This document shows, in pieces, positions 47,389-64,000 of a DNA stretch of 64,000 nucleotides; within the stretch, counting starts at the first letter, position 1; each line of letters opens with the position of its first letter. Origin of the DNA: a plasmid. Made by a program: the position numbers and the translations under genes. The stretch lies in the NCBI RefSeq assembly GCF_054482525.1, contig NZ_JBTHVG010000003.1; one strand, given 5' to 3'. The notes beneath the pieces are model-generated. The model made no database searches. It saw only the letters and a list, made by a program, of their open reading frames with translations, and was not told where the DNA came from.

Positions 47389-48477
47389 TTAGCTGGCGTT
47401 GCTGTTCTTTTTCTGGCTTCGAAGACTACGAATATAGCGCAGTTCTTCAGCGGTTAAATCATGGACGGTAAGAACATCATCGCCGTCAATCGGGTCAGCT
47501 GGTGGGCATAACTCACCTTCTAAAACAGAAGACCCTGAGTTCTCTTCTTCATCTTCAACCACTTCTAAAGGAGGCTGAGTATTGTTCAAATTCAGATCGG
47601 GATCCCGCTTATGAATCTGGAAGTATACTTTTCCGTCTTTCTTAATTTCGGTGTACTTGAGGTATCCTATCGATGCCAACTCTTCAAGAGCCTTTCTCAC
47701 GGTAGCATTCTGACTATTTGCTCGTGTTTTGAGGTTCAGACGATTTTTCAGCCGAGTAAGGGATATCGGTATAGGATTTGGCGGTAATGACTCTATGAAC
47801 GTATAGAGAGCCTGGGCGCTTTCCTTCTTGGCCAACTCCTTAATTGCCTTCAGCTGCATCAAAACCTTATGATCGTATTGATAGAGCTCGAAAATCTTAG
47901 GATCAACCTGAAGGACAACCTGATCTGATTCCGGGTCTAACAGGGCAGACTGTACCAGATGCGTTGTATAGACTTTGGACGAGTTATTACTGGTGAACGA
48001 CAAGGTAACGGATGCTAACCTGCGTAAGGAGGCGTCTATACGTTTTCTGGACGCTGTAGATGAGCGATAATTTTCAGGCGTACATAGCTTGAGGAATTCA
48101 GTGAATTTTAAGCTTATCGTGTCATTGTTAATCGGATGATTGGCATAGGTTCGAATGATGCCCATCCACGTCTTAAAATCTACTGACATATTAAGACGCT
48201 CACCGACAATTGAAATATTGGTGAACCCCTCGCTCTCCATTAAAGAGAGCGTCTGTAACTCTTTCGTTGCGTCAAAGCCAACCGTTTTATATTCCCGATT
48301 TTGACGCCCCACACTCTTTGGTGATGGGACGAACAGCCCGAGCCGCATCAAAGCAATAGACTGCACCGTACGGTTGCTGTTAGGACGCAAAATGATGTCT
48401 TTACCTGATTCTTTCTCTCTAACAGAGAAAGCCCTGGTGACCAGGTCCTGCTGCTCAGTATCTTTCTCTTTAGTCAT
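47389..48477 (-). CDS. repA: iteron-type replication initiator RepA (P1/RepFIB group)
   Basis: Segments 'NRTVQSIALMRLGLFVP', 'DFKTWMGII', 'AQALYTFIESLPPNPIPISLTRLKNRLNL' match my recollection of P1 and RepFIB RepA; flanked by iterons on both sides. Confidence 0.75.
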   Translation of the reverse strand: MTKEKDTEQQDLVTRAFSVREKESGKDIILRPNSNRTVQSIALMRLGLFVPSPKSVGRQNREYKTVGFDATKELQTLSLMESEGFTNISIVGERLNMSVDFKTWMGIIRTYANHPINNDTISLKFTEFLKLCTPENYRSSTASRKRIDASLRRLASVTLSFTSNNSSKVYTTHLVQSALLDPESDQVVLQVDPKIFELYQYDHKVLMQLKAIKELAKKESAQALYTFIESLPPNPIPISLTRLKNRLNLKTRANSQNATVRKALEELASIGYLKYTEIKKDGKVYFQIHKRDPDLNLNNTQPPLEVVEDEEENSGSSVLEGELCPPADPIDGDDVLTVHDLTAEELRYIRSLRSQKKNSNAS

Positions 48478-48548
48478 AATAAGTTATCACTGAATGTGTA
48501 AACAGATTGGTGAATAGTAAGCCCCAGCGAACTCTATGTCACTGGATG

Positions 48549-48719
48549 GATCATTGTGATGATCCATATCTGTGCATAAGTTCTACCTAAAAAAACGACT
48601 CCACTCATTAAAACTTGGCAAAAACTCTTTGCATACAATGACCTGCAACTCTTATCAACAACGGATCAGATCAAGTTAAAAAGATCTAATGAAAAGTCAC
48701 TACTATTGTCGCTCTGATC
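48549..48719. promoter_or_regulatory. repA promoter/origin-proximal region with six GATC sites and a palindrome
   Basis: GATC at 48549, 48561, 48664, 48669, 48683, 48716; palindrome ggatcattgtgatgatcc; DnaA-box-like ttatcaaca near 48652. Confidence 0.4.
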
Positions 48720-48800
48720 ACTACTGATGTCAAAAAACTCATTACCAACGTTATAATAATCACTACTAATGTCAAAATAATCACTACTGTTGTCACTGAT
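48696..48800. repeat. upstream iteron cluster 1 (five ~21-bp direct repeats)
   Basis: Repeats of cactacYRWTGTC at ~21-22 bp spacing, ~220 bp 5' of repA. Confidence 0.65.
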
Positions 48801-49108
48801 CACGTCTCAGGCCTTGTGCCGTCTGGCCTGGAGGCAGCGGGGATCTCTTTTGATCTATCAGGAACACTAAGGTACTAATTATTGGAACTACCTTGTGGAA
48901 AATGGGGATAAATAAATGCTTAGTTCTTATACAGGTCTCAACTTGCCTCCCTGATAAAAACTGTCGTCAAAGCTAAATCGCAGCCACAGGCATTTTCGGT
49001 GGATAAATTTTTGAGAAATAGAAGCATACATGCAGACTCGTGTCGCAAGTAATTGAAAGTAATGATTTATTTAAATAATGCGAGTCACCTTACCTCACAG
49101 TGGAAGTT

Positions 49109-49220
49109 TAAGTCTAACCTCACTACCATTGTCACTTAAAATCATTACCAACGTCGAAATAGTCTCTACCATTGTCTTTTAAGTCACTCCCGTTGTCACT
49201 TATGTCGCTACTGTTGTCAG
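49109..49220. repeat. upstream iteron cluster 2 (five ~21-bp direct repeats)
   Basis: cactaccattgtcac-like repeats at ~21-bp period. Confidence 0.6.
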
Positions 49221-49447
49221 TGACAATGCTCCAGCCCAGTAACCATGCGGCCTACAGCGTACCGGGATCTTCTTTGTACTCTCTGGCACCTTTGGGATCA
49301 TTTATTGGATCTACATGAGGGATAAAATCTTTTGACGATTTCGTAGTGCAGTTATACCAGCGACTTAGCAAGACAAAAGCTGCAATTTAGTGACGAGTTA
49401 CTAGTCTGCCCAACAAGAGCAATGCAGAGAAGATATGTGGTGAAATG

Positions 49448-56155: not shown

Positions 56156-57847
56156 TCATAGGACTTCCTCTTGTTGAATACGTTCGGCGTACAGGATGCG
56201 AACCGAAACGGTCGTGTTTTCAAACTCGTTCTCAAAAACGTCCATCCATTCCGTCCGGAATTCTTCCCCCAAAAGGTTATCGAGCCCCTGAAGAGATAAT
56301 GGAAGAACGGCTGCTAGAGATCCCCCGGCTGCGAGATGAGATGCAGCTGCCTGGAGATGCAGCCTGGCCCGGTTATCGGCAAAAGGTGGGTTCATCACGA
56401 CATAATCAAACTTCTTCTGTTGATTAGACTTAGACCATGTGAGGAAGTCAGCTTCTGTCGTATCGTATCCCTTAGCCCGGGAGATAAGGCAATTCAAAGT
56501 ATCAAGCTCGATGCCAGTAACGATCACACCGGCAGGGAATGATTTAAGCAAATCCGCATGGCCAATATTAGGCTCCAGGAGGGTATCCCCTTCCCCTGCA
56601 CCAAGCAGGGAAGATACATATTCGCTGATTCGGCAAGATGAAGGGTAAAACTGATGCGATACAATATCAGGCATCTCCCCTATCTGGCCGATGTAACGAA
56701 TAACCTCACACGGATCATAGGAAAATGTCACATCGTATTTTGTTACTGTTGCCCCTAAGAACCGAAGGGTGTCAGCGGCAACACTCGAAGATTTGCGTTC
56801 GGCGAGAGACCCTAAAGATGTCCAGCAACTCCATTTATTGTCCCCGTCATTTTTAAACATCAGTTCAGAAAGCTGCATCCGGGTATCAAAGTCGATGCAC
56901 TGCTTAAGTACAGGGAATGCCTCCAAAGATTTCTTGCTATGAGCCATACGGTCGGCAGGTAATGCCAGCGGTACGATAGCTGATAAAATATTGTTAAGCC
57001 GCTCGGCGATATCAGGGTGGACGTCAATATGCATTGATCCATTTTTGTAAACCCTGAAACGAATACTGTTGCCATCGATGCAGATCCATTTTCTGAACCC
57101 CTCATGTTCGACCAACGCCTCAACCAATGATTTGGTGTTATGGATCGCCTTCACCTGTTCGCCACGGAAGAATGCGCATATAACGCGGAGCTCGCTCAGC
57201 GGTGAAATGCCAGACTCTTTAAAATCCACCCTTAATTTCTGCCAGGGGTATTTAGACGGCTCGCAAACTCCGGTAGTGATCATGCGGGTGGAGAACCCAA
57301 AAGCTTTGTTTGTCTTGTGACTGCGGCTCAGAGACTGGAAGACGTCGTAAACCCTTTCTTTAATAAATTGATTGCGGTCATTAAGCAAAGCAACGACTGT
57401 GCCCACTACAGCGTCAGCTGTGAAATCAGGGATCACCTGAGGCGGCATAATATAACGGTCGGCCGTAAACTGCTTATCCCATTCGTTACGTTTGGCATCC
57501 GACATGATAGGCAAAACATCAGTGAGTGCCATAACGCATTTCCAGTATTCTGATCTCAGAGCGTTTTCTGCGAACAAAGCATCCGCTTCTGAGATGCTGT
57601 GGTTGTAGCCTGAGAGATAAGAATAAAGTTTCTGGTGATTGTGGGTTTTGAACTGGACAGCCATGAGTTTCAACAAGCAGAGTTCATCATTATAGGACTC
57701 AACAAGATCCGCGATAATGCCGAGCTCTTTGCGCATATCTGGAAGAAATGTTTCAGGAGAGCTAACCACCAGGCTATGAGAGGTTGTTAAAGCCAGTACG
57801 CTGTGACCTGCATTATCGGGTTTAGCTTCAGAATCAAGAGATGACAT
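56156..57847 (-). CDS. N6-adenine DNA methyltransferase-like protein with ~380-aa N-terminal extension (long form)
   Basis: C-terminal 'ITGIEL' and 'DYVVMNPPF' motifs paralogous to 39005-39829. Confidence 0.6.
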   Translation of the reverse strand: MSSLDSEAKPDNAGHSVLALTTSHSLVVSSPETFLPDMRKELGIIADLVESYNDELCLLKLMAVQFKTHNHQKLYSYLSGYNHSISEADALFAENALRSEYWKCVMALTDVLPIMSDAKRNEWDKQFTADRYIMPPQVIPDFTADAVVGTVVALLNDRNQFIKERVYDVFQSLSRSHKTNKAFGFSTRMITTGVCEPSKYPWQKLRVDFKESGISPLSELRVICAFFRGEQVKAIHNTKSLVEALVEHEGFRKWICIDGNSIRFRVYKNGSMHIDVHPDIAERLNNILSAIVPLALPADRMAHSKKSLEAFPVLKQCIDFDTRMQLSELMFKNDGDNKWSCWTSLGSLAERKSSSVAADTLRFLGATVTKYDVTFSYDPCEVIRYIGQIGEMPDIVSHQFYPSSCRISEYVSSLLGAGEGDTLLEPNIGHADLLKSFPAGVIVTGIELDTLNCLISRAKGYDTTEADFLTWSKSNQQKKFDYVVMNPPFADNRARLHLQAAASHLAAGGSLAAVLPLSLQGLDNLLGEEFRTEWMDVFENEFENTTVSVRILYAERIQQEEVL

Positions 57848-57978
57848 TTTACCGGTCCTTTAGAAAAAACTTTTACCAGGATAGCAACGTCGCTCAGTAA
57901 CCTAATAGGTTCAGTGACACGAAAAAGTTTTTTATGTCTCTGAATAAAACTTAAAGATGTCAACTCATAGAAAGAAGC

Positions 57979-58008
57979 AAAAAAAAAGCCCCGCATAAAC
58001 GGGGCAAG
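57979..58008 (-). terminator. rho-independent terminator (minus strand)
   Basis: gccccg-cataaa-cggggc stem followed on the minus strand by a T-run, 3' of the ParB-like gene. Confidence 0.55.
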
Positions 58009-58094
58009 AACGATACATGGAGGTTTAAAAAAGGCGGGCAAAAAGCCTGAATCCTTAATGACTCTGACAAAACCAGCACTTTGCCAAAAGTAAA

Positions 58095-59258
58095 TTATTC
58101 TGCGTCCGGCTGTGGGTCAGTATCCTGATCGGTCTCTTCCCCTGCCTTCTTAGCATTTTTTTTACGTGGGTATTTTGGCTTCTCACCATTAAGTTTTGCC
58201 TGACGATTCTCCGCACGGCGAAGCTGCTTGTTCTCTGATTCTGTGATCTCTTTTGAAAGATTTCTCAACATCTCCAGAGTACTGCGGTTCAACGTAATGT
58301 TGATTTCTTCGTCAGCACTTGAATCTGTCAGCTCCGGCAATTCAATATCCCCCAGTTTCTGTAATAAGCTGGTGGTGATGAGTTTGACGCCTTCTACGGC
58401 TTTTGTGGCAATAACCGGCGGAATCCGTGCTGGCTTGAAGTCTGAAGGTCTGACTCGTACCTGACCATGTTGGGTTTTTTTCACCGTGATGCCATTCGCA
58501 TCGGCCTGCTCAAGTTCTGCGATCATCTTCTTGATACGTGAAATTGCTTCTGTTTCGCCGAGCTCATCGATCAGTGAAAGCACGTTAACATACGAAATAG
58601 CGTCAGCATGAATCCATTTCTTGATAACAACAGAACAGGTTGTCAGGCGGATAAGAGAACTGATGGTCGTCGGGCTTTTATTTTCACGTTGAGCAATTCG
58701 TTCGAGTGACCAGCCAGCAAGAGAATGTAGGCGACGATAGGACTCGCCAAGCGCAACAGGAGAAAGCGCAAGACCACGGTTACCATCAATGGTCGCGAGC
58801 TCACAGCCAATTTCATCTTCTTTAATCTCAACGCAAAGGATTGTGATGTCATGATCTTCATCACATGCCATCATTGCGGCTTTTAAACGGCAGTGCCCCT
58901 GGCGAACAAAAGGTACCCCATCAATGACACGTACTCGGATAGGGTCTACATAGTCACCTCGAATGTAGGCATTCTTGATGTTGTAGATGTGTTCTTCAAC
59001 CTCAGGGAGCTTATAGTAATCGTCACCCATTCCCATTTCGCGGGAGTTGAAGCCTGGCGTGACCTGAATTACTGAAGGGTGGATAGCCCATGCTTTCTGG
59101 TCACTTACTTCAGTACAAAGTTCAGGGTTTGCATCACGGAACTGTTTAAGCCCAGTGACGTAACGGCCTGTGCCAGTAACTACTGAAAAGGCAACATGGG
59201 CCGTTTTAAAGACCTTGTCATTAGCTTGCTGTGTAGGTTCTGTCAGTAAAACACTCAT
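58095..59258 (-). CDS. ParB-like nuclease-domain protein (paralog 2)
   Basis: 'VPFVRQGHCRLKAA' ParB/Srx motif, HTH-like segment, basic/acidic C-terminal tail. Confidence 0.6.
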   Translation of the reverse strand: MSVLLTEPTQQANDKVFKTAHVAFSVVTGTGRYVTGLKQFRDANPELCTEVSDQKAWAIHPSVIQVTPGFNSREMGMGDDYYKLPEVEEHIYNIKNAYIRGDYVDPIRVRVIDGVPFVRQGHCRLKAAMMACDEDHDITILCVEIKEDEIGCELATIDGNRGLALSPVALGESYRRLHSLAGWSLERIAQRENKSPTTISSLIRLTTCSVVIKKWIHADAISYVNVLSLIDELGETEAISRIKKMIAELEQADANGITVKKTQHGQVRVRPSDFKPARIPPVIATKAVEGVKLITTSLLQKLGDIELPELTDSSADEEINITLNRSTLEMLRNLSKEITESENKQLRRAENRQAKLNGEKPKYPRKKNAKKAGEETDQDTDPQPDAE

Positions 59259-59535
59259 AGGGGCTCCGTTACATTTTTCTGCTTACTTTCTGCGTAGCGG
59301 GGATACTACCGAAAAAAAAATTCATAATTTTTCGCAAAAAAGGTACTTTTTGAGCCTATTCTGATTTTTTACAAAAAAAGGTGGCTCCCCATTACTTGTG
59401 ATGGCATAAAAATCGCTTCATAAACAAATACATAAATCCAAAACATAAAGTTCAGGTATAAGTGAGGAAAAATCTTATAAATCCGAAATGCTGAAAGTCA
59501 AAACTGTGCGTCTTAAACAACTTTTTTTTGCTCCC

Positions 59536-59550
59536 TAAGTTATTAGTTAA
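59536..59550 (+). promoter_or_regulatory. box variant (ctaagttattagtta) upstream of Dam-like gene
   Basis: ~60-75 nt 5' of the Dam-family gene start. Confidence 0.3.
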
Positions 59551-59606
59551 AGCCCGTGGTTAGGTACGATACCAGCACCTAAATTTCTCTCTCAGGTATA
59601 GACACT

Positions 59607-60440
59607 TTGACTCGACATCTCAGACACATGCCGATAATCAAATGGGCTGGTGGAAAAACGAAACTGATGCCTTTCATCAGCCATCACTACCCACACGATC
59701 ATAGTTGCCGGTGGGTAGAACCCTTTATAGGCGGTGGTGCCGTTTTTCTGAACATGTTTGCACAAAATGCATTGCTTGCAGATAGCAATCCAGACTTGAT
59801 CAACCTATACAGGACTATTCAAAGACAGAAAACTAACTTTATAAATCAGGTCCAAAACTTGGCGGATAAAACCTTTGTCGAAAAGGACTACTATGAGATG
59901 AGGGACCGTTTCAACAAAACCTGTATTTCTGGTCAATCGCTTCAAAGAGCGGCTTTGTTTTACTCCCTGAATCGCCTGGGCTATAACGGTATGTGCCGCT
60001 ATAACTCAGAAAGAATCTATTCAGTGCCGTGGGGGAAACATACAGAACTGAAGCTTGACCTCAATAAAATAGACTACCTTTCATTTCGTCTTTCAGGTAT
60101 TGAACTGATCACCGCTGGTTTTGAGGAGACTCTGGCCGCAACCGGTGAAGGAGATCAGATTTACTGTGATCCGCCATATGACAAAACAAGCAAAACTAGT
60201 TTTGTCAGTTACGATGGTAAACCGTTCAGCCAAAGCGACCACGTGCTGTTAGCAAATATGCTCGTTGACGCTCACAGAAAAGGCGCTGCTGTTGCGATAT
60301 CAAATAGCCTGACATCATTCACTTTGGGCCTCTATGAAGAGCGTGGATTCGTCATACACAGACTCAGCGCTTACCGATCCGTAGGAAGTAAGCCGAATAC
60401 ACGGAAAACGGAAACAGAAATACTGGCCGTGCTGAAATAG
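59607..60440 (+). CDS. Dam-family N6-adenine DNA methyltransferase
   Basis: 'IIKWAGGK' N-terminal motif and 'DPPY' motif IV; probable true start at internal Met (~59628). Confidence 0.7.
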   Translation: MTRHLRHMPIIKWAGGKTKLMPFISHHYPHDHSCRWVEPFIGGGAVFLNMFAQNALLADSNPDLINLYRTIQRQKTNFINQVQNLADKTFVEKDYYEMRDRFNKTCISGQSLQRAALFYSLNRLGYNGMCRYNSERIYSVPWGKHTELKLDLNKIDYLSFRLSGIELITAGFEETLAATGEGDQIYCDPPYDKTSKTSFVSYDGKPFSQSDHVLLANMLVDAHRKGAAVAISNSLTSFTLGLYEERGFVIHRLSAYRSVGSKPNTRKTETEILAVLK

Positions 60441-60448
60441 AGTAAATT

Positions 60449-61306
60449 CTAATCAACTAGGCTAATCCATTCCTCAAAAGTTAATACCTCAGGGTAAGTT
60501 CGTTGAACATAAGGTATAAACTGAAGCTCTTCTATTCTCCGGTCGCCCCTCTTTCCTTCGCAAATAAATGAAATGAGTCCTTGCTGAGAAAGGCCAGTAA
60601 GGACGCTCATAAGTCTTATATTTAGACTTTTAAGCTGTAAGTCGTTATTAATGTCCTCCACTTTATGAGAGCTCTGGCCTGAACGTTTAAGATACTCGTA
60701 AACCATGAAATTCGAATTTCGTCGTTTTAACAATTTTTCGGTTATGCATTCCTGAATGAAGTCGCCAAGAGCATCTAAAAGCGGACTGAGAACTACCGGG
60801 AAAGTTAATGTGTAACTTTGAGAAGTTTTAGACAAAGTGAATGAGTTTAGAAAGCTAAAGTTTAGTCTCTTTTTTGAATATGGAACATAAGCGACAAGAG
60901 TAGTCGACATAACAGTAAGTAAAGCTTCAAGATGGTTCACTGTTATTAAAGTGGTTTTATCTGTATTTCTAAGATTATGGAAATCAATAAACGCTACTCT
61001 TGAACGGCTAAGCCAATCTTGTACTTTAATGTCGATAGAAAATTGCGAGATATGATTTGAACATTCATTTTGGGTGATAGGGCATGCAGACGAAAGATGG
61101 TTATGGATTATCATGCATAGCACAAAAAAAGGAAAACGGCAGGCTGTGGGGCATTGAAAACCGGTTAAAGAAAGCTTAGACGTTTCATATGCGCTTACCG
61201 GAAAAGTAACTTTTCTTAACGTTGGCTTTGACGATGTTCTTGCATTTTTACAAATGAAACCGAGACCCAGATCATTGTGCATTTTAAAGTCCATCTCCAT
61301 CATCAC
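60449..61306 (-). CDS. hypothetical protein (true start probably internal)
   Basis: Low-GC ORF; a palindromic motif copy lies inside the annotated N-terminus. Confidence 0.3.
   Translation of the reverse strand: MMMEMDFKMHNDLGLGFICKNARTSSKPTLRKVTFPVSAYETSKLSLTGFQCPTACRFPFFVLCMIIHNHLSSACPITQNECSNHISQFSIDIKVQDWLSRSRVAFIDFHNLRNTDKTTLITVNHLEALLTVMSTTLVAYVPYSKKRLNFSFLNSFTLSKTSQSYTLTFPVVLSPLLDALGDFIQECITEKLLKRRNSNFMVYEYLKRSGQSSHKVEDINNDLQLKSLNIRLMSVLTGLSQQGLISFICEGKRGDRRIEELQFIPYVQRTYPEVLTFEEWISLVD
61197..61216. promoter_or_regulatory. palindromic motif copy (ccggaaaagtaacttttctt)
   Basis: Read directly; inside annotated 5' end of 60449-61306. Confidence 0.35.
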
Positions 61307-61537
61307 CTTTTAGCCTTAACTGTATGGTATTGGTATACAAAAAATTAAAATTATAATTAATAAGATTATCATTTTTTTACAATAGAAAAGGTTCTGATAG
61401 AGGGGAATTTAAATGTAAAAGATTTATACTCGCAGATCTTTATGAGGGATAAAACCCATTGCGTAAGCAACAATATTACGTGAGTGAGTCCTAACGACAG
61501 TTAAAGTCTTGGCTCTATATTTAAGCAGCAAAAACAT

Positions 61538-62254
61538 TTAACTGTCTTGGAGTTTATTTAACTTAAAAACTGTTATTGCAGCATAATTTTTCGAATCAAA
61601 TTCATAGAATTTTCTGACTTTTCCAGTCAAATGATAACGTTCACCCAATAAAATGTGATCCTGTTTATCGGCCGTTAAAGCGATCCCGTCATTTCTAACT
61701 TTACCAGTAAATGTAAAAAAATAACTCCCTTTACTTTTTGCGTACGCGGCCCTGACTTCAGTAAATGTTAGTTCAATGCTTATGACCTGGCCGATATTGT
61801 AGCTATGTTTTAAAATTTCTTGTTCATTTTCCGGAGTTTCAGACAACATCACATCAAAAGTTGTAAATAAACAATCCAGCTGGCGTTCTGTCAAGAAACG
61901 GTTATTGTCTAATTGCGCCAATATACTATTAGAAAACTTAGTGTTAGCCTTTTTTGCTTTCTCAATAAGGACGTGGTTTCTGGATTTCCATGCTTCGAGT
62001 GTTGGGTTAACACGCAGTTCCGGAATGTTATCGAGAAAGGTAATTGGCTCTAGTGCCACTAATTTTTCAATAATGGGTCCAACTGTTTGTACCCCATGAC
62101 ACTTTTCACATAAATCAGCCCCTTTGTGGCCTGTGCCCGCACATTCGTTACATTCTCTTTCGATAGGTGCATAATAATTTCCATCTCCGTTAAGTGATAC
62201 ATTCACTGAGGCTGGTACCATATGACCATCAAGAGTAAAGAAAAGAGATTTCAT
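61538..62254 (-). CDS. hypothetical protein with Cys-rich segment
   Basis: 'CNECAGTGHKGADLCEKCHG'. Confidence 0.35.
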   Translation of the reverse strand: MKSLFFTLDGHMVPASVNVSLNGDGNYYAPIERECNECAGTGHKGADLCEKCHGVQTVGPIIEKLVALEPITFLDNIPELRVNPTLEAWKSRNHVLIEKAKKANTKFSNSILAQLDNNRFLTERQLDCLFTTFDVMLSETPENEQEILKHSYNIGQVISIELTFTEVRAAYAKSKGSYFFTFTGKVRNDGIALTADKQDHILLGERYHLTGKVRKFYEFDSKNYAAITVFKLNKLQDS

Positions 62255-62451
62255 TTTCGAAACACCTCCAAACGTGCCTCTACGATTGCTACAGCTTCTT
62301 TCACAGTTTTTTCATAGTGGTCATGCCCTTCAGGAAATTGATCAAAACGTTTACCGTGTTCTAACTCTTCCATGTTGCGTTTAAGGACTTCATGAGTTAG
62401 AAGCAAATCACTATAATTATCGATAAGAGTCAGCTTTATAGGTTTAATCAC
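62251..62451 (-). CDS. hypothetical small protein
   Basis: ORF overlapping next gene by 4 nt. Confidence 0.3.
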   Translation of the reverse strand: MIKPIKLTLIDNYSDLLLTHEVLKRNMEELEHGKRFDQFPEGHDHYEKTVKEAVAIVEARLEVFRK

Positions 62452-62468
62452 TCAACTAATCCTCGTTT

Positions 62469-63524
62469 TTAATATTCCTTAAGGAGATCTCGAATTTCCA
62501 GAAGCTCTTCTAATTTTGGTTTAGAAACAATGATTGCTGTATTTTCGTCGTTAAGTAAAGACAATAAAATATTTAGCTTTTCATCATTCAAGATTATTTG
62601 AACACCATCATTGGAAAATATTACATTATTACTATTAACATTTTTGAACAAGTGTGCACTATCTCTACCAAATTTTAGTTCTGTTTGAGTATTCGTTATA
62701 GATTCCGTATGTGTACTTTCCACAAGCTCAAGAAATTCAGATTTTAGCCGTTCTGTTTTCTTATGCGAGAGGCGCTTAATACCCAAAGTCTTACGAGTGA
62801 CTGCCGAATTTTTCTTTTCTGGTCCGCCTTTATTTAAGGTGTCTGGTCCTGCTCCAGCTGCATTGTGTTCAGGTATGCCTACAATTTTGCTCGTTGTAGT
62901 CTCAATATTCTTAACGCCAGGTAAGAAACCTTCTATATGTTTTAAAACCATTTTGTGATCGTTGGAATATTTTAACATTATTTCAATGGCGAGCGTTTTT
63001 TTGATTAGATTTAGGCTAATCAAACGTTGAAGCTCTAATGGCATATCAAGGATTTTTAGCATATTACGAATTGCGGTAGTTGATCGTTGATATCGCATTG
63101 CTAGTTCTTCAACCGAATACCCGAGACTAACAGCATGAGCTAATGCATGAGCTTGCCCAACCGGATTTAGCCCATTGCTTCTGTTACCATCGAGGTTCTC
63201 AAGGTATTCTTCAATTTCGTTTTTATAATCGATTAGGATAACAGATAATTTTGGAATATTAGCACCTTCAGAAATTGCTAATTTTAAGCCATGAAAACGA
63301 GTATGACCTTGACGAACTAAATATTTACCTTTTCTTTTTACGACCTTGATCATATCAACCTGCCTTCCTTCCTTAAAGGCTTGTTTGATTGACACAATCA
63401 TCGACTTGACAGGTTCTTGTTCGTAACACAAATCTCCGATTACCGCCTCTCGGGGATTAAATCCCTTTTCAATTTCAACTAGATTAGTATCCACTTCAAT
63501 GACTGTATGTTTGCTGTTGTTCAT
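62469..63524 (-). CDS. ParB-like nuclease-domain protein (paralog 3, low GC)
   Basis: 'YLVRQGHTRFHGLKLA' ParB/Srx motif and HTH-like segment. Confidence 0.6.
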   Translation of the reverse strand: MNNSKHTVIEVDTNLVEIEKGFNPREAVIGDLCYEQEPVKSMIVSIKQAFKEGRQVDMIKVVKRKGKYLVRQGHTRFHGLKLAISEGANIPKLSVILIDYKNEIEEYLENLDGNRSNGLNPVGQAHALAHAVSLGYSVEELAMRYQRSTTAIRNMLKILDMPLELQRLISLNLIKKTLAIEIMLKYSNDHKMVLKHIEGFLPGVKNIETTTSKIVGIPEHNAAGAGPDTLNKGGPEKKNSAVTRKTLGIKRLSHKKTERLKSEFLELVESTHTESITNTQTELKFGRDSAHLFKNVNSNNVIFSNDGVQIILNDEKLNILLSLLNDENTAIIVSKPKLEELLEIRDLLKEY

Positions 63525-64000
63525 ATCTTCCTCCTGTTTACTACATGATACATGAACCTCAAATTTGCCAAATAGGGCTGATACATCTAAAAGGTAAACT
63601 CAAAAAATTTGCTTAATAAAATTAAAATAAAAACTGTCTTGAATAAAACAATGATAGTAGACCCTCGTTCATTTCCGTTTGCGATCTGTAGATATTGTTA
63701 AAGGAGCGCTATTCCTTGTTTTATATGGACTTATCATTGTTTTCAACAGGATAGATCAATTCTTTAGATCACTAAAGATCAATAGAGTTCAAGTAAAGAT
63801 CACGGCATCTTTAACTCATTGATTATAGTGACTTTATGAAAGGATCCGGCATTCGGATGCATGCGAAAAGCATTTGAATGAATAAGGAAGGCATTTACTG
63901 GAATGCTTATGGCATTTAGGTTAATGCGTAAAAAGCATTTGCAAGAATATGTTATAAACAGTTTGCCAAATGAAAATCTTATCACCGACGAGTTAAGTTA

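What the first reader, a model, noticed from the sequence alone, without database searches (positions are those of the whole stretch)
63750..63805. Cluster of four AGATCA (GATC-containing) direct repeats upstream of the third ParB-like gene
Four GATC sites at 63754, 63767, 63777 and 63798, each embedded in AGATCA, lie about 230 bp 5' of the ParB-like gene 62469-63524 and within 4 kb of a plasmid Dam-family methylase gene. Clustered GATC repeats are classic Dam-methylation-sensitive regulatory or sequestration sites, so expression here may be coupled to the hemimethylated state of newly transferred or replicated DNA. They could alternatively be a binding site for the ParB-like protein.
Basis: partly seen in the sequence, partly recalled or inferred. 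Interest (0 to 1): 0.4.

Follow-up and report, generated by a model that had tools for sequence, protein, structure and literature searches.

The report
GATC repeats of a plasmid origin
The four AGATCA repeats are real, but they are the Dam-methylated core of a P1-type plasmid replication origin serving the replication-initiator gene that starts one base after the window ends, not a switch for the neighbouring ParB-like gene; this is an ordinary, already described kind of element.

Summary
Four AGATCA hexamers lie at 63753, 63766, 63776 and 63797. This is the densest 50-bp GATC cluster in the window and is far from chance as an oriented hexamer array.

The context changes the reading. The window comes from an IncHI2 (R478-type) plasmid and ends one base before the ATG of a 291-aa Rep3-family initiator that is 45% identical to phage P1 RepA. 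Between the repeats and that ATG lie five iterons spaced 21 bp apart. Directly upstream lie two decayed DnaA boxes. P1 oriR has the same layout, and there GenBank annotates the GATCs as Dam methylation sites.

All 11 Rep relatives examined (37–100% identity) carry 3–6 GATCs at the same distance from rep; ten carry 4–6. Most of them have no ParB-like neighbour. Across three IncHI lineages the four hexamers and a fifth GATC never vary, while the half of the spacer next to the ParB-like gene is unalignable.

Most likely function, inferred by homology and not tested: the origin-opening and Dam/SeqA-sensing core of the RepHI1A-type origin. Novelty and interest are low.

The parts
63731..63748 (+). 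Two tandem decayed DnaA-box homologues (TTATCATTG, TTTTCAACA) directly upstream of the GATC array
   Evidence: These align column for column with P1 TTATCCACA/TTATCCACT (annotated as a DnaA binding site) and with IncHI1 TTATCCACG/TTTTCCACA. In IncHI2 they carry 4 and 2 mismatches to TTATCCACA, so DnaA binding here is uncertain.
63753..63802 (+). The finding itself: four AGATCA units (63753, 63766, 63776, 63797), the GATC-heptamer array of the origin core and the inferred Dam/SeqA target and strand-opening region
   Evidence: Searches give the positions. The GATCs lie at -247, -234, -224 and -203 from the rep ATG; in P1 the annotated Dam sites lie at -254 to -203. All 24 hexamer columns are invariant in three IncHI lineages against 18 of 26 spacer columns (Fisher p = 0.003). 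All 11 Rep relatives have a GATC cluster in the equivalent place, 10 of them with 4-6 sites.
63843..63846 (.). Fifth conserved GATC (GGATCC), abutting iteron 1
   Evidence: Invariant in alignment A1. An equivalent GATC is present at -158/-159 in IncHI1.
63849..63955 (+). Five direct iterons (GCATTY-N5-MAT core) starting at 63849, 63870, 63891, 63912 and 63935, spaced 21, 21, 21 and 23 bp; inferred binding sites of the Rep initiator and probable seat of the rep promoter
   Evidence: One search gives the motif and register. 79% of columns are invariant across IncHI lineages, against 27-36% in the flanks. The number and spacing match the five annotated RepA iterons of P1 incC. The same motif recurs in arrays downstream of rep in IncHI1 (about 12 copies) and R478 (about 9 copies).
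62469..63524 (-). ParB-like ORF (351 aa), the divergent neighbour; not part of the origin
   Evidence: Weak match to the ParB N-terminal domain (TIGR00180, 33.9 bits, below the cut-off). It is syntenic with rep in IncHI1 and IncHI2. No such gene is the upstream neighbour in P1, SJ46, pMT1 or FIB-K, which carry the same GATC array.
59607..60440 (+). Plasmid-borne Dam-family N6-adenine methyltransferase gene; a possible trans-acting modifier of the array (inference only)
   Evidence: TIGR00571, 228 bits. RefSeq names it a Dam family methyltransferase. It is conserved in the same synteny in IncHI1.

Best explanation
The AGATCA array is the GATC-repeat core of the vegetative replication origin of one of the plasmid's two Rep3/RepFIB-family iteron replicons. 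MOB-suite types this replicon IncHI2A. Its Rep is about 86% identical to that of IncHI1A-typed plasmids, so it is most probably RepHI1A(R478).

The origin reads, 5' to 3' on the + strand:
- DnaA-box remnants, 63731-63748
- four AGATCA units, 63753-63802
- a 40-bp spacer
- a fifth GATC, 63843
- five iterons, 63849-63955
- the rep ATG at 64001, outside the window

By homology with P1 oriR, the proposed mechanism is as follows. Rep bound to the iterons, helped by DnaA, opens the duplex in the AT-rich GATC-repeat segment. Full Dam methylation of the repeats is needed for, or favours, opening. After the fork passes, the closely spaced hemimethylated GATCs are bound by SeqA, which holds the new origins silent until they are re-methylated.

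Shown here: the anatomy, the homology to P1 oriR, and the conservation. Inferred: Dam dependence, SeqA binding, and the site of strand opening.
For: - Plasmid identity. The window is IncHI2: 1114 plasmid records match at 95% identity or more. R478 itself starts its numbering at this rep gene.
- The initiator. A RepB-family initiator starts at window position 64001. It has Pfam Rep3_N and Rep3_C domains. It is 45% identical to P1 RepA, E = 2e-79.
- The P1 reference. GenBank annotates P1 oriR as a DnaA site, five Dam methylation sites at -254 to -203, five iterons at 21-bp spacing from -160 to -57, then repA. The window has GATCs at -247 to -203 and five iterons starting between -152 and -66, at 21-bp spacing.
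- Nucleotide-level homology of the core. P1 reads TTATCCACATTATCCACTGGATAGATCCAAT and IncHI2 reads TTATCATTGTTTTCAACAGGATAGATCAAT.
- Family-wide presence. All 11 Rep-family loci (37-100% identity) carry a GATC cluster at -345 to -285 from a conserved QPVAL anchor: 10 loci have 4-6 sites there and pMT1 has 3 more widely spaced ones. That is 2.9 GATC per 50 bp in the peak bin against about 0.2 elsewhere.
- Conservation within IncHI. The hexamers and the fifth GATC are invariant in three IncHI lineages while the spacers vary. The GATC array is 84% invariant and the iterons 79%, against 27% for the half of the spacer next to the ParB-like gene. The distant blastn search aligns only 63731-63949 with IncHI1.
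- Control iterons. Iteron arrays lie downstream of rep, like P1 incA.
- Internal replicate. The second Rep paralogue in the window (47389-48477) also has DnaA box, GATC heptamers and iterons upstream. The two GATC-densest stretches of the window both sit at Rep origins.
- Literature. A review places a P1 DnaA-box array 'upstream of DUE' (PMC4980987). [quoted passage not shown] A preprint states that such hemimethylation systems were identified in RepFIB and P1 plasmids (10.1101/2025.02.19.639193).
Against: - No experiment on IncHI origins was available. The primary papers on RepHI1A (Newnham & Taylor 1994; Page et al. 2001) are not held, so Dam dependence, SeqA binding and the opening site are extrapolated from P1 and RepFIB.
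- The two DnaA boxes that flank the array in P1 and IncHI1 have decayed in IncHI2, with 4 and 2 mismatches.
- The G+C-rich stretch that follows the repeats in P1 is missing: 63803-63842 is 63% A+T.
- The most A+T-rich stretch of the spacer (63590-63665, 78% A+T) lies elsewhere, so the opening site is not proven.
- The plasmid has a second replicon, so this origin need not be the one mainly used.
Confidence: 0.85

Rival explanations
1. One reading: the GATC cluster is a Dam-methylation-sensitive operator or promoter element. It would couple transcription of the ParB-like gene (62469-63524, - strand) to the hemimethylated state of newly replicated or newly transferred DNA.
For: The array lies in the shared divergent spacer, 230-277 bp upstream of the ParB-like ATG. 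The ParB-like gene is syntenic with rep in both IncHI1 and IncHI2, and a Dam-family gene is nearby. An origin core could also influence a divergent promoter.
Against: The same array at the same distance from rep occurs in P1, SJ46, pMT1 and FIB-K replicons whose upstream neighbour is not this gene. The 206 bp next to the ParB-like gene are not conserved between IncHI lineages, while the array and iterons are. No sigma-70-like promoter overlaps the array on the - strand, even with relaxed criteria. The distance is long for an operator.
Confidence: 0.06
2. The AGATCA repeats are a binding array (centromere- or operator-like) for the ParB-like protein encoded next door.
For: ParB-family proteins bind repeated sites near their genes, and the repeats are adjacent to a ParB-like ORF.
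Against: The motif is a 6-8 bp direct repeat, not a parS-type inverted repeat. No ParA partner is adjacent; the neighbours are a 66-aa ORF and a zinc-finger-like ORF. No comparable cluster lies near the other ParB-like genes of the window, where AGATCA occurs only as singletons. The array is conserved in replicons where no such protein is encoded next to rep.
Confidence: 0.03
3. The GATCs mainly regulate rep transcription (a Dam-dependent rep promoter) rather than origin opening or sequestration.
For: The array lies upstream of rep on the same strand. Dam-dependent initiator promoters exist, for example dnaA (general knowledge).
Against: In P1 the annotated PrepA lies inside the iterons, about 100 bp downstream of the Dam sites. 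Here the array is 203-247 bp from the ATG with five iterons in between, and no consensus promoter is found at the array.
Confidence: 0.05
4. Chance clustering in AT-rich intergenic DNA, with no function.
For: Four plain GATCs within 44 nt arise somewhere in 6.6% of simulated 64-kb sequences.
Against: Three or more oriented AGATCA within 44 nt arose in 0 of 500 simulations, and the local-background P is 0.0004. The hexamers are invariant across three IncHI lineages while the spacers vary. A GATC cluster is present at the same position in all 11 family members.
Confidence: 0.01

Closest known systems
Phage/plasmid P1 oriR origin core (five GATC-containing 7-bp repeats between the DnaA boxes and the incC iterons)
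   Same: The initiators are homologous (45% identity). The order is the same: DnaA boxes, GATC heptamers, five iterons at 21-bp spacing, rep, then downstream control iterons. The distances from the ATG match (P1 -254 to -203; here -247 to -203). The heptamers are similar (wAGATCC versus wAGATCA). The DnaA-box/first-heptamer junction can be aligned directly.
   Different: There are four GATCs plus one isolated GATC instead of five. The base after GATC is A, not C. The flanking DnaA boxes have decayed in IncHI2. There is no G+C-rich stretch after the repeats. The iteron sequence is unrelated (GCATTT-N5-AATG versus GATGTGTGCTGGAGGGA). The upstream neighbour is a ParB-like operon. Dam dependence has not been tested for this origin.
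RepHI1A replicon of IncHI1 plasmid R27 / RepHI1A(R478) of IncHI2 (Newnham & Taylor 1994; Page et al. 2001; cited, not readable here)
   Same: Rep is 86% identical to that of IncHI1A-typed plasmids. The four AGATCA, the fifth GATC and the five iterons are conserved position for position. R478 numbering starts at this rep.
   Different: IncHI1 keeps two good DnaA boxes (one mismatch each) where IncHI2 has 4 and 2 mismatches. The sequence on the ParB-like side is unrelated. The equation of this locus with the published 'RepHI1A(R478)' rests on typing and on the titles of papers I could not read.
RepFIB replicons (P307, pColV-K30 REPI, Klebsiella FIB-K)
   Same: Same Rep family (42-46% identity). 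Five to six GATCs at about 11-bp spacing at the same distance from rep.
   Different: They have more sites with more regular spacing, a GATCC context and different iterons.
E. coli oriC 13-mer / GATC region with SeqA sequestration
   Same: Closely spaced GATCs lie in the A+T-rich unwinding part of an origin next to DnaA boxes. The expected consequence is SeqA binding when hemimethylated (general knowledge; PMC2865523).
   Different: This origin is driven by Rep and iterons, not by DnaA alone. There are far fewer GATCs (5 against 11). There is no sequence homology.

Membership tests
P1 oriR / RepFIB-type iteron origin | Adjacent Rep3-family (WH1-WH2) initiator homologous to P1 RepA | tested here: met
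   Pfam Rep3_N and Rep3_C. 45% identity to P1 RepA, E = 2e-79. The gene starts at window position 64001.
P1 oriR / RepFIB-type iteron origin | Array of four or more GATC-containing short repeats about 200-255 bp upstream of the rep ATG | tested here: met
   GATCs at -247, -234, -224 and -203 here; P1 annotated Dam sites at -254 to -203. All 11 relatives have a cluster in the same place, 10 with four or more GATCs and pMT1 with three.
P1 oriR / RepFIB-type iteron origin | DnaA box(es) immediately upstream of the GATC repeats | tested here: inconclusive
   The homologous positions exist (63731-63748) but carry 4 and 2 mismatches to TTATCCACA. IncHI1 relatives have one mismatch each and P1 has 0 and 1.
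P1 oriR / RepFIB-type iteron origin | About five direct iterons in helical phase (about 21 bp) between the repeats and rep | tested here: met
   Starts at 63849, 63870, 63891, 63912 and 63935 with spacings of 21, 21, 21 and 23 bp. They are conserved in IncHI1.
P1 oriR / RepFIB-type iteron origin | Second, copy-control iteron array downstream of rep (incA-like) | tested here: met
   This lies outside the window. The motif recurs about 12 times in IncHI1 (L002 3854-4375) and about 9 times in R478 (L017 1014-1600).
P1 oriR / RepFIB-type iteron origin | G+C-rich stretch between the GATC repeats and the iterons (P1 core) | tested here: not met
   63803-63842 is 63% A+T and poorly conserved (28% invariant). 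This is a P1-subgroup trait, also absent from the IncHI1 and Cronobacter relatives.
P1 oriR / RepFIB-type iteron origin | Autonomous replication of the fragment; dependence on Dam methylation; SeqA binding to the hemimethylated core | not testable with these tools
   Only the titles of primary papers on P1, REPI and R478 were seen in reference lists. Nothing experimental on this origin was seen.
Dam-regulated promoter/operator (pap, agn43, IS10, traJ type) | GATC sites overlapping a promoter hexamer or a regulator-binding site of the controlled gene | tested here: not met
   No sigma-70 consensus promoter in 63400-64100. A relaxed scan finds none over 63750-63805 on the - strand. The array is 230 bp or more from the ParB-like ATG.
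ParB-parS partition site | Inverted-repeat or longer repeated ParB boxes next to a parA-parB operon | tested here: not met
   The repeats are direct 6-8 bp units. There is no ParA neighbour. The ParB-domain match is below the cut-off. The motif is conserved in replicons where no such ParB-like gene is the upstream neighbour.

The most novel reading that the evidence does not exclude
The IncHI backbone conserves its own Dam-family methyltransferase gene about 3.3 kb from this origin, in the same synteny in IncHI1 and IncHI2. The plasmid carries two origins with GATC-heptamer cores. The plasmid Dam might exist to set the methylation and sequestration timing of its own origins independently of host Dam, for instance just after conjugative entry or in hosts with low Dam. 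The divergent ParB-like operon might then be co-switched by the same hemimethylated array. Nothing here tests this reading; it is merely not excluded.
Probability: 0.08. Interest if true: 0.45.

Novelty: already known. Interest (0 to 1): 0.15.

Why it matters
It matters little beyond annotation. The result places the vegetative origin of one of the two IncHI2 replicons at about 63731-63955 and explains the GATC cluster as a family trait of P1/RepFIB-type origins.

It also corrects a mis-assignment to the ParB-like gene, which arose because the rep gene lies just past the window edge.

IncHI2 plasmids are major carriers of mcr and ESBL genes. If the inferred Dam/SeqA dependence holds, Dam would be a host or plasmid factor needed for their maintenance, but that idea follows directly from the P1 work and is not new.

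Tried and rejected
- **Promoter scans.** A strict sigma-70 scan of the spacer found nothing. A relaxed scan found only weak 8-of-12 matches, none over the array on the - strand. Neither the rep promoter nor the ParB-like promoter could be placed.
- **DnaA boxes.** A search at up to 2 mismatches in L001 gave 46 hits against 46 expected. It is uninformative on its own; only the alignment with IncHI1 and P1 gives the two boxes meaning.
- **Rfam.** An E-value scan of the spacer, rep and flank found no RNA family.
- **Small ORFs.** ORFs 63679-63822 (+) and 63800-63985 (-) overlap the array. I rejected them as coding because of a 1-nt indel between GATC 3 and 4 in the IncHI1 lineages and because the conservation follows the repeats, not codons.
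- **Primary literature.** Page 2001, Newnham & Taylor 1994, Abeles & Austin 1987, Abeles 1993, the R27 genome paper and the P1 genome paper are all not held. The IncHI comparative preprint does not mention iterons, GATC or methylase.
- **Plain GATC count.** As a statistic it is weak at window scale (6.6% of simulations). The oriented hexamer count and the conservation carry the argument.
- **NCBIfam on Rep.** No hit; Pfam was needed.

Full report
**Observation**

The sequence at 63750-63805 reads gatAGATCAattctttAGATCActaaAGATCAatagagttcaagtaaAGATCAcgg. GATC starts at 63754, 63767, 63777 and 63798, each inside AGATCA, all in one orientation, with spacings of 13, 10 and 21 bp.

This is the densest 50-bp GATC cluster in the window. 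The significance depends on how it is counted:
- Four plain GATCs within 44 nt appear somewhere in 33 of 500 Markov-1 simulations of a 64-kb sequence, so this is only marginal.
- Three or more oriented AGATCA appear in 0 of 500 simulations. Only 16 AGATCA exist in the whole window.
- Against the local 33%-GC background, a cluster of four or more has P = 0.0004.

The last 2 kb of the window match 1114 plasmid records at 95% identity or more. These are large conjugative plasmids of Escherichia, Salmonella and Enterobacter that MOB-suite types IncHI2A.

In many records, including R478, the sequence immediately after window position 64000 is base 1 of the record and the ATG of a 291-aa 'RepB family plasmid replication initiator'. 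The finding therefore sits in a 476-bp divergent spacer between the ParB-like gene (- strand) and a rep gene (+ strand) that the window edge cut off.

That Rep has Rep3 WH1 and WH2 domains. It is 86% identical to the Rep of IncHI1A-typed plasmids, 42-46% to RepFIB proteins and 45% to P1 RepA, E = 2e-79.

**Anatomy**

Between the array and the rep ATG lie five direct repeats with a GCATTY-N5-MAT core. They start at 63849, 63870, 63891, 63912 and 63935, spaced 21, 21, 21 and 23 bp.

The same motif recurs in arrays downstream of rep in relatives that have no IS insertion: about 12 copies in an IncHI1 plasmid and about 9 in R478. They are therefore iterons, with an origin set and a control set.

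A fifth GATC (63843) abuts iteron 1. Directly upstream of the array are TTATCATTG and TTTTCAACA (63731-63748).

**Comparison with P1**

The GenBank record of P1 annotates oriR as follows:
- a DnaA binding site
- five 'Dam methylation sites', at -254, -231, -220, -210 and -203 from the repA ATG
- five RepA iterons at 21-bp spacing (-160 to -57), with PrepA inside them
- repA
- the nine incA iterons

In the window, the GATCs lie at -247, -234, -224 and -203 (plus -158), and the iterons start between -152 and -66.

The cores align at nucleotide level:
- P1: TTATCCACATTATCCACTGGATAGATCCAAT
- IncHI1: TTATCCACGTTTTCCACAAGTTAGATCAAT
- IncHI2: TTATCATTGTTTTCAACAGGATAGATCAAT

The array is therefore the homologue of the P1 origin-core GATC repeats.

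**Family-wide test**

I anchored 11 loci on the conserved QPVAL motif of Rep. The loci were IncHI2, two IncHI1-type lineages, a Cronobacter plasmid, two RepFIB plasmids, E. coli pE105-1, P1, SJ46, a Klebsiella phage-plasmid and Yersinia pMT1, spanning 37-100% Rep identity.

Every one has a GATC cluster at -345 to -285. Ten have 4-6 sites there. pMT1 has three in that range, more widely spaced, with two more just upstream at -377 and -363. The peak 50-bp bin holds 2.9 GATC per locus, against about 0.2 in other bins. In P1, SJ46, pMT1 and FIB-K the annotated upstream neighbour is not a ParB-like gene of this kind.

**Conservation within IncHI**

The alignment covers three lineages:
- All 24 hexamer columns are invariant, against 18 of 26 spacer columns inside the array (Fisher p = 0.003).
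- The array is 84% invariant and the iterons 79%.
- The ParB-proximal 206 bp is 27% invariant, the 40-bp spacer 28%, and the last 45 bp 36%.

A sensitive blastn search aligns only 63731-63949 with the 281 IncHI1-type records. A 1-nt indel inside the array rules out the small overlapping ORFs as coding. The GATC at 63683 is not conserved.

**Internal replicate**

The window holds a second Rep paralogue at 47389-48477 (- strand), 43% identical to the first. Its upstream region carries two ori-like modules, each made of DnaA box, (A/T)AGATCC heptamers, a G+C-rich stretch and iterons. This region is the other GATC-dense spot of the window.

**Mechanism**

The anatomy and homology are shown. The function is inferred from P1 and RepFIB.

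From the paper titles and reviews available here:
- P1 replication requires methylated DNA, and adenine methylation controls oriR at two levels; the REPI (RepFIB) replicon is also Dam-controlled (reference list of PMC2865523).
- The P1 DnaA-box array lies 'upstream of DUE' (PMC4980987).
- Hemimethylation systems of this kind are described for RepFIB and P1 plasmids (10.1101/2025.02.19.639193).

From my own knowledge of the P1 work (Brendler, Abeles and Austin; Park and Chattoraj), not verifiable here: SeqA was discovered partly through its methylation-specific binding to this P1 core, and strand opening maps to the repeats.

I therefore propose that 63753-63802 is where the origin opens, that it must be Dam-methylated to fire, and that SeqA sequesters it when hemimethylated.

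**Differences from P1**
- The base after GATC is A rather than C.
- There are four GATCs plus one isolated GATC, rather than five.
- There is no G+C-rich stretch after the repeats.
- The DnaA boxes have decayed in IncHI2, though not in IncHI1.

**Rival readings**
- A Dam-sensitive promoter for the ParB-like gene is unlikely. The array follows rep and not that gene across the family, the gene-proximal DNA is not conserved, and no promoter-like site overlaps the array.
- A ParB-like binding site is unlikely for the same phylogenetic reason. The motif is also a short direct repeat, with no ParA partner nearby.
- Chance is excluded by the conservation.

**Verdict**

The element is an ordinary member of a well-described class of origin, in a replicon that has itself been published (the title of Page et al. 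2001, cited). Novelty: already known. Interest: low.

Noticed in passing
window 47389-49330: A second Rep3/RepFIB-family initiator gene lies at 47389-48477 (- strand, 362 aa), 43% identical to the rep at 64001. Two tandem ori-like modules lie upstream of it: a distal one at about 49330-49115 and a proximal one at about 48915-48690. Each consists of DnaA box(es), (A/T)AGATCC-type heptamers, a G+C-rich stretch and about five iterons. In the proximal module three heptamers have lost their GATC (TAGTTCC, TAGTACC, GTGTTCC). This is probably the RepHI2A replicon. The duplication of the origin module is unexplained.
   Followed up: partly
window 63731-63748: The two DnaA boxes flanking the origin core are good in IncHI1-type plasmids (TTATCCACG, TTTTCCACA) but decayed in both IncHI2 variants (TTATCATTG, TTTTCAACA; 4 and 2 mismatches). 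The GATC array and iterons stay intact. [quoted passage not shown]
   Followed up: partly
window 63542-63555: A tandem heptamer TACATGA TACATGA (on the - strand TCATGTA TCATGTA) lies just upstream of the Shine-Dalgarno sequence of the ParB-like gene. It sits inside a block (63535-63556) that is invariant in three otherwise diverged IncHI lineages. It may be an operator or a translational control site for the ParB-like operon.
   Followed up: no
window 56156-63524 and L018 (IncHI1 NZ_CP053049.1 180134-187532): A gene block is conserved in order and orientation between IncHI1 and IncHI2, next to rep: DUF4942 protein, ParB-like, Dam-family methyltransferase, hypothetical, zinc-finger-like, 66-aa ORF, ParB-like. 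The plasmid thus carries its own Dam-family enzyme 3.3 kb from a Dam-site-bearing origin.
   Followed up: partly
L001 9061-10289 (NZ_CP022451.1), about 180 bp past the rep stop; outside the window: In this and apparently many related IncHI2 plasmids an IS3-family element is inserted between the first and second downstream (control) iterons. It separates rep from most of its incA-like array. R478 has no such insertion (L017).
   Followed up: no
window 63979-63987: TTATCACCG lies 14 nt before the rep ATG and resembles the TTATCACCA box that P1 has between its iterons and repA. It is not conserved in IncHI1.
   Followed up: no
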